Assembly: GCA_048886685.1 (NCBI GenBank)
Contig: JBHLKM010000001.1
Span: 256,001 to 320,000, forward strand
Source: Candidatus Hodarchaeota archaeon
GTDB lineage: Archaea > Asgardarchaeota > Lokiarchaeia > Sigyniarchaeales > SOKP01
DNA length: 64,000 nucleotides
Direction of reading: 5' to 3'
Shown: positions 21,715 through 34,543 of the stretch, piece after piece
How the letters are laid out: each line of letters starts with the position of its first letter
Numbering within the stretch: the stretch's first letter is position 1
Made by a program: the position numbers and the translations under genes
Notes under the pieces: model-generated
Seen by the model: only the letters and a program-made list of their open reading frames with translations
Database searches by the model: none
What the model was told of the DNA's origin: nothing

Positions 21715-21816
21715 TAGCCCGGCACGGAATTTCAATTAACAAGCATACTTGTTAATATTCGAACCGTGGTCGCGGGGTTCAAAGCCCCAAATGCTTGGCC
21801 ACTACACCACCGGGCT
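21715..21816 (-). tRNA. tRNA-Gln(UUG) with a 29-nt intron in the T-loop (position 59/60)
   Basis: Acceptor AGCCCGG/CCGGGCT+A (A1-U72 pair typical of archaeal tRNA-Gln); anticodon arm TGGGG-CTTTGAA-CCCCG; T arm CACGG-TTCGAA[intron]T-CCGTG. 73 nt after intron removal; CCA not encoded. Confidence 0.96.
21729..21757 (-). other. Bulge-helix-bulge tRNA intron (29 nt)
   Basis: TATTAACAAGTATGCTTGTTAATTGAAAT. Central helix TTCG/TGAA, 3-nt bulges AAT and ATT, inner 9-bp stem ATTAACAAG/CTTGTTAAT, outer helix = T stem. Confidence 0.93.
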
Positions 21817-28582: not shown

Positions 28583-28954
28583 TTGAGTGAAAATATCGCT
28601 GAACTCACTGACTTATTACGCCAAATGGAAGCTGTAAATCCTGATATTCAGGGCTCAGCTATCGTGAGTGTTCAAGGGCTTCCAATATGTTCTGCGCTTG
28701 CAAGGGATGTAAATGATGGCATAGTTTCAGCGATGAGTGCTGCTATTTTAAGCGTCTCTGAACGCGCTGTAGAAGAGCTTGCTAGAGGAGATTTAAAGCG
28801 GATACTAATAGAGGGTTTAGATGGCATTATAATATTATCTAAAGCCGGGGAAAACGCTATTTTATGCACTCTCGCGAAAAGCGACGCTTCTTTAGGCATG
28901 GTTTTCCTAAATATTCAAAGTGTCTCAAATAAAATTGCTGATTTATTAGATTAA
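28583..28954 (+). CDS. Roadblock/LC7 domain protein
   Basis: GSAIVSVQGLPI.S, SAMSAAILSVSERAVEEL.RG.L and LGMVFL. TTG start. Confidence 0.9.
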   Translation: MSENIAELTDLLRQMEAVNPDIQGSAIVSVQGLPICSALARDVNDGIVSAMSAAILSVSERAVEELARGDLKRILIEGLDGIIILSKAGENAILCTLAKSDASLGMVFLNIQSVSNKIADLLD

Positions 28955-30344: not shown

Positions 30345-31814
30345 CTATTTTCGAATTTCTTCGATTTGATCAAATATATTATCAAATCTCTCCCTTATAG
30401 AACCGTATAAACCTTCTTCTTCAGAGACCACCGAATTGATTGCTGTTTTTAATCCATAATGACTTTCAGAGATCAGAACTCTAATTGGTAATGTAAGGAT
30501 ATCATTTACTATCATCAAGATTTCTTGTATTATGTTAATAACTTGAGGTACTCTTTCACGGGTTTTATCAATTGGTGTAGTCTCGGAGGGAATTAAACCA
30601 TTCTCTCTTTCTTTCTTTAATTCTTCCCAAACATTTTCTTTTAATTCGGAAAACTCAATACCCAAATTTTCAAGAGCCATCTGAGCACCTTCAAATAGAA
30701 AATTTATTGTATCTCTTCCTGTAAATTGTCTTACATTATCGACCATCTCTGGAGGTGCTAAACCCTCCAGAAAATTGACTAATAATTCATTGTAGTCTCG
30801 GATTACATCTAATGGAATAAACAGTAATGTCATTTCTTTTAGTTGTCTAAATATATATCCAAAAACCTTTGCAAACCATTCGTTCTTGAGAGATTTTTCT
30901 AACAAACCACCATACTCATTTAAAAGATGAATCCCTAGATAACCAATAATCTTGATCATATCATCCTCATAATTTCTAAAATAATCAAAAAAATGGTCAG
31001 GTTCCATATTTAATTTATCTCGTATTATATCAGCAACTTTTTCCTTTATGGTTTCTAATGGTTCATCAAGATATTCTTCTAATTTATCAATAGATATAAC
31101 ATCTTGGAGCTTGTCTATAATATCAAGCTTAGTTTCTTGAACTATGTCTTCTTCTAAATCTTCGCCAAAAATTACTTTTAGGGCTTTTCTTTCTTTACTT
31201 CTTAAATCCGTAATTTGTTCCCATTCTTTATAGTCATGGATTTTACAGATAAATTGTAGACATTCTCCCCCTTTGGCGATACAATCTTGCTCGATTATTT
31301 GAATCCGATAATCATTCCTCTTTATTTTTAATATAAAATTAGCGACACTTTCCAGCATTCCACATAACCCACAGGCTAATCCTTCAGTTTCTTTATCTTT
31401 CAATTTATTGAAATCGAATGTATCTTCACTATCTTGACCATGACCGGCACAAATTGGGCACTTACTGATTTTTAATATGTAATCATTATATTTTGAATCT
31501 TCTTTAGGAATTTCTTCATAAGTATAATCGTCTAATTCTCTTCCAAATACTACAACCCAAAGAATTTCGAAATAATCCAAAACTTTTTTAGGAGATCCGG
31601 GCATAAATTTAAAAATGTTAGAATGACGCTCACATGATTCATAAGCAGCTCTTTTTCCAATTTCTCTAAGAATTATAAGACTTTCTTCTTCATTTTTAGT
31701 TACCTCATTGATCTCCTTAAGGATTTCCCTGTAAAGTAATGTGTAGAATAATGCATTAGTAGAACGACCAAAAATTTTCGTAATTTTCTTCATTAACCAT
31801 TGAAAAGCACCCAT
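30345..31814 (-). CDS. V4R/TRAPP(Bet3)-like N-terminal domain with an acidic helical C-terminal region
   Basis: LREIGKRAA, CPIC, CGLCGMLE and EQDCIAKGGECLQF match the V4R Cys pattern. Confidence 0.62.
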   Translation of the reverse strand: MGAFQWLMKKITKIFGRSTNALFYTLLYREILKEINEVTKNEEESLIILREIGKRAAYESCERHSNIFKFMPGSPKKVLDYFEILWVVVFGRELDDYTYEEIPKEDSKYNDYILKISKCPICAGHGQDSEDTFDFNKLKDKETEGLACGLCGMLESVANFILKIKRNDYRIQIIEQDCIAKGGECLQFICKIHDYKEWEQITDLRSKERKALKVIFGEDLEEDIVQETKLDIIDKLQDVISIDKLEEYLDEPLETIKEKVADIIRDKLNMEPDHFFDYFRNYEDDMIKIIGYLGIHLLNEYGGLLEKSLKNEWFAKVFGYIFRQLKEMTLLFIPLDVIRDYNELLVNFLEGLAPPEMVDNVRQFTGRDTINFLFEGAQMALENLGIEFSELKENVWEELKKERENGLIPSETTPIDKTRERVPQVINIIQEILMIVNDILTLPIRVLISESHYGLKTAINSVVSEEEGLYGSIRERFDNIFDQIEEIRK

Positions 31815-31816
31815 TT

Positions 31817-32329
31817 TTAGCCTCTCCTCCCTATTTTATATTTATAAACTTGAATACATGTTTTATTTCCATAGGCTCGAGACTCGATGACCTCTTGCGG
31901 TTTAAAAACCAAAGAAGATATACCTTTAGATTCTCTGCTTATATGAGAAATAATTTCTGAAACCATCCCTAATATAATCTCACATCCCGCTATTTCTATC
32001 TCATCGTAATGATATTTACATAGAGCACAGTTTGAATCTCGAACTCTAACTATGTTCTCAGCTTCACTTAATTCGATTGAAGGAGAGCTGTTCAATACTT
32101 TTTGATAAATAGTTGTAATAACATCTTTTAAATTAGAAACATTGACCGTATCCGTAGGTTTCCAGTATTTCATATAGGTTTTAGCTATGTTTTTTCCCAT
32201 CTTCCTTAATCTTTCTTTTAAATCGGTAAGTCCATTTCTCTCCATAAATGTTGCTAAGATGTGAATGCTATTGCGCATTTGATTCATGGTTGCATCTGTT
32301 TGTACCAGATCTTTCCTCGAAAAATTCAT
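31817..32329 (-). CDS. Stand-alone V4R/TRAPP(Bet3)-like protein
   Basis: ERLRKMGKNIA, NCALC, GCEIILGMV and ESRAYGNKTC. Confidence 0.62.
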   Translation of the reverse strand: MNFSRKDLVQTDATMNQMRNSIHILATFMERNGLTDLKERLRKMGKNIAKTYMKYWKPTDTVNVSNLKDVITTIYQKVLNSSPSIELSEAENIVRVRDSNCALCKYHYDEIEIAGCEIILGMVSEIISHISRESKGISSLVFKPQEVIESRAYGNKTCIQVYKYKIGRRG

Positions 32330-32561
32330 AGTTCTATTTTACACTCTCAAAGTAATTTAAATATTGAAAATCTTCATTAAATAAAAAATTTTTAATCTGA
32401 TTAACAGATTATTCGTATGATTTTCAAATATTTCTTGATAATTCAATTAAGAAATTAATACCAGCTCTCAATAATAAAAGATCCATAGAATTATTAAATT
32501 GACTGCTTAGATTTGCGATAACTTAAAAAAAGTAAGATAAATAAGAATTTCTTAAAAAAAG

Positions 32562-32948
32562 TTACATTTGGGAGATAATCTGTCTCATAATTTGCTCTCC
32601 CGCGGCCCCAACCATCAATCCGTTCCGTACAAGCAACTGACCTTGAATCTCTATTGGGTGATTTAAGAGTTCACCGTTTTTGAAAAACAATAAGGTTGGA
32701 ATGGCTGTTATACCAAACATCTCACCGAGAGGCCTATTCCTGTCCAAATCCTCTTTTAATAATTTGATAAGACCTTCACTTTTCAGTTTTTCTAATATTG
32801 GACTTAAAAATTTGCAAGGGCCGCACCATTGCTGTTTGAGTGAGGAATTCACTCAAATTTCAGTGTAGACATCTACGATGACTTTGCCCTCTTTCATATC
32901 GTCTGTAATTTCAAGTCCAAATTTTTTTAATTCTTCGATATTTATCAT
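32562..32948 (-). CDS. trxA: Thioredoxin, 118 aa after removal of a 30-nt insert (exons 32948-32859 and 32828-32562)
   Basis: Exon 1 MINIEELKKFGLEITDDMKEGKVIVDVYTE joins in frame to exon 2 WCGPCKFLSP...FGITAIPTLLFFKNG. The unspliced frame has TGA at 32855-32853. Confidence 0.88.
32829..32858 (-). other. Candidate BHB/BHL-type intron in thioredoxin mRNA (30 nt)
   Basis: ATTTGAGTGAATTCCTCACTCAAACAGCAA. Perfect 9-bp stem TTTGAGTGA/TCACTCAAA, 3-nt bulge AAA, central helix ACTG/CAGC (3 pairs plus one A-C mismatch), contains an in-frame TGA. Confidence 0.78.
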
Positions 32949-33057
32949 ATTAGATACAATTTTGTAGTTTAAGGTATTTTTATTGTATTGTGATATAGTT
33001 GGGGGAATAAATATTTAATTGCTTTTATTAATTTCATTTACAAATTAAAAATCAGAT

Positions 33058-33335
33058 CGAGTGGAAACTGACGAAAACCATATGGAAAAGGAAAGATTAC
33101 ATGGAATACAAAACCACCATATGGTCAAAAATGGGGGTCATTTGAAGTTCAAGCCAATGGAGGTCATGCAGTCAGTGTTGGATCATATATCATCCCTGGT
33201 GTAAATTTCTAAATCTGTATTAAAGCATCAATGAATCAGAGTGATTTTATAGCTATATCCTCAAAATATGAAGCTCCAAATATTACCATAATAAGAGGAA
33301 ATAATGAAATCAGATGTAATTACATATGTTATTAA
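33058..33335 (+). pseudogene. Degraded fragment of a DNRLRE/CBM96-like domain gene
   Basis: RVETD..(frameshift)..GKITWNTKPPYG...VNF*ICIKAS...FIAISSKYEAP. In-frame TAA at 33210-33212; no intact start. Confidence 0.45.
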
Positions 33336-33573
33336 ACAGATGGAAAAAAATACAAATTCTGACACAATTAAGAGATGTAATTTGAATATATTTTTCTTAA
33401 TTTTATTCATGGAATATGAATTATTTACAAATTAAAAATGGAATGGCACACAAATTAATAAATAACTATATTAATGATTAGGGAATAGTATTAAACTTGA
33501 AGAAAAGAATAAAATCCTTATGTTGAGATTGAGAAAGATAAGGATATTAATTTAGAAAATTAAAGCAAATTTT

Positions 33574-34047
33574 ATGAAGATTATTACATATGGTTGGAGT
33601 TTAAAGTGGAAGGCTCCGATAATAGTGAAAAAGGAAATTGATCTGAAATGCGAGGGTGAGGGATGTGAAGATAATCCTTTTGTCATTAAGCCATCAAGCA
33701 TGCTACCGAGCTATTTTGAAATACATAATTCTGAGTATTACGTAGATATTCAAAATTGTGATCTTGAATCAATTGACTTGAAACATTGCAGGAATGTTAC
33801 TTTTAAAGACTGTAAATTAAAAAGGAGTAAATTAGAGGGGTGTTCGATTATCAGATATTTAAATTCAAATATATATGGTAATTTAACTTTACTTTCCTGT
33901 AATGAAGTAAAAATCGAGGAATGTATAATTAATAAGTTGAAATTTAAGAGCTCAAATTCAAATCTAGTTAAAAATTGCTCAATTAACACTATCAAGAAAA
34001 TTAGAAGTAAAAATAATATTTTTGAAGAAATTATTAATTCCAAATAG
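33574..34047 (+). CDS. Small right-handed beta-helix (NosD/pectin-lyase-like) protein, paralog 1
   Basis: GEGCEDNPFVI motif followed by repeated I.NC / L..C.N strands. Confidence 0.7.
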   Translation: MKIITYGWSLKWKAPIIVKKEIDLKCEGEGCEDNPFVIKPSSMLPSYFEIHNSEYYVDIQNCDLESIDLKHCRNVTFKDCKLKRSKLEGCSIIRYLNSNIYGNLTLLSCNEVKIEECIINKLKFKSSNSNLVKNCSINTIKKIRSKNNIFEEIINSK

Positions 34048-34084
34048 TGATTTAACCCAAAAAAATTGAAAACTTGATAATTCT

Positions 34085-34543
34085 ATGAAGCTAATTGTAT
34101 ATGAAGCAAATTTGAAATGGAGATTTCCGACAGTAGATTCAAAATATATTGATTTTGACTGTCCTGGTACAGGGATCGAAAGTGATCCATATATTATTGA
34201 ACCTTCAAAAGCTCTTCCAGGCAATTTTGGGCCCTTTAATTCCAAAGAATTCATTAGAATTCAAAATTGTCGACTCGCTCAACTAAATATAGAATCTTGT
34301 CAGAATATAGAATTTGAGAATAACAAGATTAAAGGGATCCAATTAAATAAATGCTCTGACTGTTCCTTAGTAAATACTGAAGTAGAATTATTAAGTTTAG
34401 AGAGTTGTCAGAACATTAAGATTGCAGATTGCATAGTCGATAGATTAAGACTTTATCATTCTGGGTCAAATAGTTTTAAGAATTGCATTATTAAGTATAG
34501 AAAGACGATAAAAAGCAAGGAAAATATTTTTGAAAATATTTAA
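34085..34543 (+). CDS. Small right-handed beta-helix protein, paralog 2
   Basis: GTGIESDPYII motif and SCQNI repeats. Aligns end to end with 33574..34047 (LKW..P, SK.NIFE). Confidence 0.7.
   Translation: MKLIVYEANLKWRFPTVDSKYIDFDCPGTGIESDPYIIEPSKALPGNFGPFNSKEFIRIQNCRLAQLNIESCQNIEFENNKIKGIQLNKCSDCSLVNTEVELLSLESCQNIKIADCIVDRLRLYHSGSNSFKNCIIKYRKTIKSKENIFENI

What the first reader, a model, noticed from the sequence alone, without database searches (positions are those of the whole stretch)
32562..32948. Thioredoxin mRNA interrupted by a tRNA-type (BHB/BHL) intron immediately before the WCGPC active site
Seen: the ORF track gives only a truncated thioredoxin (MNSSLKQQWCGPC). The same frame continues upstream past one TGA to a normal N-terminus (ATG 32948 ... 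KVIVDVYTE). The 30 nt between TE and WCGPC (32858-32829) form a perfect 9-bp hairpin containing that TGA. Its layout is 1 nt, 9-bp stem, loop, 4 nt, 2 nt, which is the same layout as the 29-nt tRNA-Gln intron in this window (loop 5 nt versus 4 nt). Established: archaeal splicing endonucleases cut after the second base of each bulge and RtcB ligates; this route is known for tRNA and rRNA and for cbf5 mRNA in some crenarchaea. Applying the rule (ACTG AA|A ... CAGC AA|T) gives ACT GAA TGG TGC, i.e. VDVYTEWCGPCK, with canonical thioredoxin spacing and a 118-aa product. Caveat: the central helix has one A-C mismatch and the exon-exon helix (GTCTAC/GTG-C-GGC) is imperfect, so the motif is relaxed. 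Inference: this is an endonuclease-spliced intron in an Asgard protein-coding gene, which gene callers would record as a truncated gene or pseudogene.
Basis: partly seen in the sequence, partly recalled or inferred. Interest (0 to 1): 0.93.

Follow-up and report, generated by a model that had tools for sequence, protein, structure and literature searches.

The report
tRNA-type intron in Asgard thioredoxin gene
A healthy thioredoxin gene of an Asgard archaeon is split by a 30-base hairpin with a stop codon that is most likely cut out of the messenger RNA by the tRNA-splicing enzymes, and similar inserts break a number of other protein genes in this lineage, whereas the papers I could search show this for the coding part of only one archaeal gene.

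Summary
Observation confirmed. A 30-nt insert (32858-32829, minus strand) with an in-frame stop splits a single-copy 118-aa thioredoxin of a Promethearchaeia (Loki-type Asgard) archaeon just before WCGPC. It occurs in 16 sequence variants. Both exons stay under purifying selection (dN/dS 0.10 and 0.04). The insert varies like an RNA hairpin, not like protein, and one variant has TAA, which excludes selenocysteine. Insert-free close relatives carry exactly the predicted spliced junction, interleaved with insert-bearing ones (at least 13 state changes on a weak tree). The motif is relaxed: 3 of 4 central pairs, almost no exon helix. The genome encodes a two-subunit EndA with the broad-specificity loop, and RtcB. 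A motif-free comparison with a relative found 8 well-supported frame-breaking inserts, all in bulge-helix-bulge register; none of 38 in-frame indels were. A second, different intron sits in the same gene family. Splicing itself is not shown: no RNA run was listed. The scan has noted this intron and this class before on other DNA. Verdict: EndA/RtcB-spliced mRNA intron (about 0.88), one of probably tens per genome; published precedent is cbf5.

The parts
32859..32948 (-). trx exon 1 (30 codons, ends ACT GAA = T-E)
   Evidence: aligns with the N-terminus of insert-free orthologues; dN/dS 0.10
32829..32858 (-). 30-nt candidate BHB-type (relaxed, HBh'-like) mRNA intron
32562..32828 (-). trx exon 2 (starts TGG of WCGPC, 88 codons plus stop)
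   Evidence: Pfam PF00085 from model position 29, E 2e-13; dN/dS 0.04
32861..32864 (-). 5' (exon) strand of the central helix, ACTG
   Evidence: CUG/CAG paired in 16/16 variants; outer pair always a mismatch
32858..32860 (-). 5' bulge AA|A, predicted cut after nt 2
32835..32857 (-). intron hairpin: 9-bp stem, 5-nt loop
   Evidence: pair probabilities 0.67-1.0; 93.8% of cells paired, one two-sided change
32853..32855 (-). in-frame stop inside the stem (TGA; TAA in L090)
32831..32834 (-). 3' (intron) strand of the central helix, CAGC (CAGG in most variants)
32828..32830 (-). 3' bulge AA|T, predicted cut after nt 2
   Evidence: junction identical to insert-free alleles
21715..21816 (-). tRNA-Gln(UUG) gene with a 29-nt canonical BHB intron in the T-loop (21757-21729); internal comparison, not part of the trx unit

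Best explanation
The insert is a protein-spliced mRNA intron. The transcript folds into a 9-bp intron hairpin, a 3-nt bulge and a 3-pair central helix, with the 3' cut site in a mostly open loop (shown as sequence and predicted fold). The cell's (alpha-beta)2 splicing endonuclease, which carries the L1/CSL loop linked to relaxed substrates, cuts after the second base of each bulge, and RtcB joins the exons to give T-E-W-C-G-P-C and a 118-aa thioredoxin (inferred). Unspliced mRNA would give only a 31-aa peptide. The intron was gained once in a subclade of the genus and has since been lost precisely, or replaced by insert-free alleles, many times, so it is probably a tolerated passenger rather than a regulator (inferred). 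It is one of probably tens of such mini-introns per genome in this genus.
For: Same insert at the same site in 4 of 30 genus genomes, 11 metagenome contigs and further records: 16 variants. Exon dN/dS 0.10 and 0.04, like insert-free copies at 0.10 and 0.07. Inside the insert, pairwise difference is 0.51 in the loop, 0.03 and 0.17 in the arms, 0 in the CAG strand; second codon positions vary (0.19) whereas they are invariant in the flanking exons. Stem changes include four one-sided G-U changes and one U-A to C-G change with its U-G intermediate. The synonymous Tyr codon before the site is TAC in all insert-bearing rows but mostly TAT in insert-free ones, matching the C-G pair. Insert-free alleles 5-16 residues away from insert-bearing ones join exactly at ACT GAA TGG in genomic contigs. 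EndA alpha and beta, with the CSL-like loop aligned to the 3p1z/3ajv chains, and RtcB are present; Asgard EndAs carry L1 (PMC5829648). Motif-free census: 8 of 8 strongly supported frame-breaking inserts fit a BHB register with negative energy, 0 of 38 in-frame indels do. A different 25-nt frameshifting intron with a 4-pair central helix lies in the same gene family in three genomes.
Against: No RNA or protein evidence of splicing. The motif is relaxed: outer central pair always A.C or A.G, central-helix pairing probability only 0.1-0.5, exon helix 1 bp; RNAalifold prefers an alternative exon-exon helix that excludes the central helix. Covariation is not significant (85 of 500 shuffles reach it), and one stem pair is broken in 6 of 16 variants. 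Nesting of losses is suggestive only (AU p 0.057; weak protein tree). The GTG right after the stop is invariant and could restart translation.
Confidence: 0.88

Rival explanations
1. Split thioredoxin without splicing: the ribosome stops at TGA, restarts at the adjacent GTG, and a 31-aa and a 96-aa piece assemble into a working enzyme.
For: Stop followed directly by GTG in 16/16 variants, insert always 30 nt with no second stop; thioredoxin fragment complementation is known in vitro (own knowledge).
Against: The would-be leader codons change freely at second positions while synonymous sites are frozen. The GTG lies inside the stem, which explains its conservation. It cannot explain the frameshifting inserts of 25, 29, 31, 34 and 53 nt.
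Confidence: 0.04
2. The insert is removed from the RNA, but by another nuclease or in another register than the EndA rule predicts.
For: Relaxed motif; alternative consensus fold; several alignment-equivalent registers exist for this insert.
Against: In all 8 census inserts the BHB register is also a best-scoring protein register; insert-free relatives read T-E-W as predicted even where sister introns end in GAT or GAC.
Confidence: 0.04
3. Translational recoding: selenocysteine or Trp read-through of TGA, or a ribosomal hop over the hairpin.
For: Frame-preserving 30 nt; a Sec tRNA is predicted in the genome; some gene callers give a 128-aa TGA=W product.
Against: L090 has TAA at that codon. 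Ten extra residues would sit between the strand and the active site. The would-be landing codon (CAA, GAT, GAC, GAA) mostly does not match the take-off GAA.
Confidence: 0.02
4. Pseudogene hit by a palindromic insertion, or an assembly artefact.
For: The genome has two distant thioredoxin-like paralogues and is a metagenome bin with 8% contamination.
Against: Purifying selection on both exons, no other lesion in 14 insert-bearing genes, 16 variants from independent samples, and the own 96-aa product is on 3 contigs.
Confidence: 0.02

Closest known systems
cbf5 pre-mRNA intron of Desulfurococcales and Sulfolobales (Watanabe 2002; Yokobori 2009, PMC2738675)
   Same: Small insert at a catalytic motif of a protein gene, unconventional BHB, hetero-oligomeric EndA, lineage-specific loss.
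   Different: cbf5 is one ancient intron in one gene with RNA proof. Here the host is an Asgard metabolic gene, gain is recent (within a genus), presence flips repeatedly, and many genes are affected; no RNA proof yet.
Archaeal tRNA introns, especially the intron-rich tRNA genes of Asgard archaea (bioRxiv 10.64898/2026.10.13.758758; PMC11291895)
   Same: Same size range, same 1 + stem + 4 + 2 layout, repeated gains, same enzymes.
   Different: Host is an mRNA with no tRNA body to supply the exon helix; those papers do not report coding-sequence introns.
BHB intron in the 5' UTR of Haloferax HVO_1309 (PMC7714728)
   Same: EndA acts on an mRNA.
   Different: Untranslated region; does not restore a reading frame.
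IRE1/RtcB splicing of XBP1 and HAC1 mRNA (PMC13149111)
   Same: Short intron removed by a protein endonuclease plus a ligase, restoring a reading frame.
   Different: Different nuclease and RNA motif; regulated by stress. No evidence of regulation here.

Membership tests
Canonical BHB (hBHBh') intron | 4-bp central helix | tested here: not met
   3 invariant WC pairs plus A.C or A.G in every variant
Canonical BHB (hBHBh') intron | exon-exon helix closing the 3' bulge | tested here: not met
   one C-G pair in register, probability 0.03 or less
Relaxed BHB (HBh'/BHL) EndA intron, cbf5 type | 3-nt bulge between central helix and intron stem | tested here: met
   AAA bulge and 9-bp stem in 16/16
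Relaxed BHB (HBh'/BHL) EndA intron, cbf5 type | cutting after nt 2 of each bulge restores the conserved frame | tested here: met
   gives 118 aa and the same junction as insert-free relatives
Relaxed BHB (HBh'/BHL) EndA intron, cbf5 type | two-subunit EndA with specificity loop, and RtcB, in the host | tested here: met
   PMC5829648
Relaxed BHB (HBh'/BHL) EndA intron, cbf5 type | structure conserved by compensatory change | tested here: inconclusive
   one two-sided and four wobble changes, not above shuffles
Relaxed BHB (HBh'/BHL) EndA intron, cbf5 type | spliced mRNA and EndA cleavage | not testable with these tools
   no RNA holder listed
Selenoprotein / TGA recoding | conserved in-frame TGA | tested here: not met
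   TAA in L090
Mobile miniature repeat element | further copies in the genome | tested here: not met
   single copy by blastn-short; pattern hits at control level
Thioredoxin (PF00085) | WCGPC site and domain match | tested here: met
   exon 2 and the insert-free relative P0024 pass the Pfam cut-off

The most novel reading that the evidence does not exclude
This Loki-type Asgard genus routinely splices on the order of tens of different mRNAs with its tRNA endonuclease and RtcB. The introns are lineage-specific, sit in conserved motifs in the 5' half of genes, can come in pairs around a 16-nt micro-exon, and are gained and precisely lost within a genus. That would be a working, spliceosome-free mRNA-intron system in the prokaryotes closest to eukaryotes.
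Probability: 0.7. Interest if true: 0.9.

Novelty: new variant of a known kind. Interest (0 to 1): 0.8.

Why it matters
Archaeal coding sequences are treated as intron-free apart from cbf5 (PMC7714728, PMC2738675). If Asgard archaea splice many mRNAs with EndA and RtcB, their gene catalogues contain systematic false truncations and absences (uvrB, cdhA, purA, gyrB, thioredoxin). It would also show that coupled transcription and translation can tolerate stop-containing introns, which bears on arguments linking introns to the origin of the nucleus, and it offers a prokaryotic parallel to IRE1/RtcB mRNA splicing. This locus, with insert-bearing and insert-free alleles in near-identical genes, makes intron gain and precise loss directly testable.

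Tried and rejected
RNA reads: no RNA holder listed for window 31300-33600; this is no evidence either way, and read laying could not be used. ARAGORN and Rfam found nothing in the window. De novo genome scans for BHB shape plus frame joining were dominated by gene-boundary noise and showed no enrichment without extra filters; only a post hoc filter (25-36 nt, exon 2 of 60 codons or more) gave 15 loci against 3 and 3 for shifted frames, so I do not use it as a count. No reverse transcriptase (PF00078) was found in this genome, so cDNA-mediated loss has no enzyme in hand. The insert is not a multi-copy element. The sigma-70 promoter and terminator scan was at shuffle level and does not suit archaea. 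A redox-switch function was considered and not adopted: close relatives lose the intron repeatedly. Eight paper searches found no report of Asgard coding-sequence BHB introns; the library lacks most subscription papers, and a 2013 RNA-seq paper I recall on unusual archaeal transcripts was not held.

Full report
Observation. The minus-strand frame from ATG 32948 reads a normal thioredoxin N-terminus, then ten extra codons with a TGA, then WCGPC. The extra 30 nt (32858-32829) parse as one base, a 9-bp Watson-Crick stem with a 5-nt loop, four bases and two bases; the four bases (CAGC) face ACTG of the upstream exon across a 3-nt bulge. The tRNA-Gln(UUG) at 21816-21715 carries a 29-nt T-loop intron of the same layout with a full central helix. 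The geometry alone occurs 38 times in the genome against 17-28 in shuffles, so the argument rests on its coincidence with an insert defined by homology. Relatives are named Promethearchaeota or Promethearchaeia bins, that is, Loki-type Asgard archaea.

Orthologues. Of 30 best orthologues in the genus, four carry the insert at the same site and 26 lack it, with 118-aa products. A pattern search blind to the insert's own sequence returned 11 more metagenome contigs, and protein look-ups added more, giving 16 variants, all 30 nt. Databases hold the gene as a 96-aa fragment or as a 128-aa TGA=Trp product. Both exons of insert-bearing genes are under purifying selection (dN/dS 0.10 and 0.04; insert-free 0.10 and 0.07). 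This removes the pseudogene and artefact readings.

Constraint on the insert. Variation is concentrated in the loop (pairwise difference 0.51) and is low in the arms (0.03, 0.17) and nil in the CAG strand; second codon positions vary in the insert (0.19) but not in the flanking exons. 95.7% of cells of the proposed structure are paired, with four one-sided wobble changes and one U-A to C-G change whose U-G intermediate is also present; this is not significant against shuffles (85 of 500), and one stem pair is broken in 6 of 16. One variant has TAA for TGA, excluding selenocysteine. The synonymous Tyr codon before the site is TAC in all 14 insert-bearing genes of the tree set, against 7 TAC and 32 TAT in insert-free genes (rows are related, so this is not an independent count). 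The motif is relaxed: the outer central pair is always A.C or A.G, the central helix has a pairing probability of 0.1-0.5, and the exon helix is one pair; the alignment fold prefers an alternative exon helix.

History. On a DNA tree of exons, all 14 insert-bearing genes fall in one clade (100/98) with three insert-free genes, two of them nested (96/87); monophyly of the insert-bearing genes alone is not rejected (AU p 0.057). On a larger, weakly resolved protein tree, 27 insert-bearing and 28 insert-free rows interleave in one clade, needing at least 13 changes. Insert-free alleles checked at DNA level lie in genomic contigs and join exactly at the predicted junction. I read this as one gain followed by repeated precise loss or replacement by insert-free alleles. 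No reverse transcriptase was found in this genome, so the route of loss is open.

Machinery. The genome has two EndA paralogues: one keeps the Tyr-His-Lys catalytic pattern by inspection and aligns through the N-terminal extra loop to crenarchaeal-type alpha chains (3p1z, E 5e-34), the other lacks the His. RtcB is intact. Published work assigns Asgard EndAs to the (alpha-beta)2 type with the L1 loop associated with cleavage of relaxed motifs (PMC5829648).

Not a one-off. Three other genomes carry a different, 25-nt frameshifting insert with a 4-pair central helix later in the same gene family. For a motif-free test I compared 1.2 Mb of relative G005 with this genome in both directions (755 and 766 matched genes). 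Fifteen frame-breaking events were found. The eight with strong alignment gain (74 or more) all have a BHB register with negative energy that is also a best protein register: uvrB, a hexapeptide-repeat protein, cdhA and this trx in G000; an unknown protein, gyrB, mevalonate kinase-like and undecaprenyl-diphosphate-synthase-like genes in G005 (names from motifs by inspection). The seven weak events (gain 43 or less) and all 38 in-frame indels do not. Leaving out trx itself, 3 in 755 scales to roughly 15 unshared introns per genome (Poisson range about 3-45). All eight lie in the 5' half of their gene, against 22 of 38 control indels (small sample). A post hoc shape scan recovered inserts that restore known motifs in purA, a cob(I)alamin adenosyltransferase-like gene, an acetoacetate-CoA ligase and a GH38 enzyme, and a 416-aa frame that needs two introns (34 and 22 nt) around a 16-nt exon.

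Mechanism. Shown: sequence, conservation pattern, exact insert-free alleles, presence of the enzymes. Inferred: EndA cuts after the second base of each bulge, RtcB joins the exons, and splicing competes with ribosomes that would stop at codon 32. Rivals (stop-restart split protein, another excision route, recoding, pseudogene) total about 0.12. A redox-switch role is possible but is argued against by repeated loss.

Known versus new. The only coding-sequence BHB intron in the papers I could search is cbf5 (PMC2738675, PMC7714728); Asgard papers cover tRNA introns only. The insert fails the canonical BHB test but meets the testable features of the relaxed cbf5 type. Earlier notes of this scan describe the same intron in other genomes, many similar ones in this genome, and two cases said to have spliced RNA; I did not check those RNA claims and do not count them as evidence. 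Verdict: real, most likely an endonuclease-spliced mRNA intron, a new variant of a known kind because of its host, number and turnover; interest 0.8.

Noticed in passing
L036-L038 (G028 C48, G010 C25, G031 C192): Second, unrelated 25-nt frameshifting BHB intron in the same thioredoxin family, after RPLGE; 4-pair central helix.
   Followed up: partly
G000 C3:76487-76558 (+): Two BHB-like inserts (34 and 22 nt) around a 16-nt micro-exon; removing both opens a 416-aa frame that looks thiolase-like by inspection.
   Followed up: partly
G000 C3:215413, C5:86550, C18:88180: Frame-breaking 29-, 31- and 34-nt BHB-type inserts in uvrB, a hexapeptide-repeat protein and cdhA, absent from G005.
   Followed up: partly
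L173:17488, L210:15103, L214:5337, L201:5072 (G005): Four BHB-type inserts (30, 53, 31, 30 nt) in G005 genes, including gyrB, absent from G000.
   Followed up: partly
G000 C2:178230(-), C17:95399(-), C40:3422(+), C20:41204(-), C4:207110(-), C2:6635(-), C6:98861(+): Further candidate mRNA introns from the shape scan; the first four restore recognisable motifs.
   Followed up: no
window 21715-21816 (-): tRNA-Gln(UUG) with a T-loop intron, missed by ARAGORN and Rfam.
   Followed up: yes
census set: All eight well-supported introns lie in the 5' half of their gene, and the outer central pair is often a mismatch (A.G, G.A, A.C).
   Followed up: partly
window 33574-34543 (+): Two tandem, similar 157- and 152-aa beta-helix or pentapeptide-like genes lie between trx and hdrC-like; in several relatives hdrC-like sits directly upstream of trx.
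   Followed up: no
window 30345-32329 (-) and 28583-28954 (+): Pair of V4R/Bet3-like genes downstream of trx on the same strand, converging on a roadblock-like gene (names from earlier notes and inspection; no Pfam hit over cut-off for the 170-aa gene).
   Followed up: no
G000 C2:87479 (-) and C20:32811 (+): Small in-frame stretches with a stop relative to G005 that do not fit a BHB register or were not resolved.
   Followed up: no
P0138 / L237: An insert-bearing allele with CGAC in place of CGPC at the active site.
   Followed up: no
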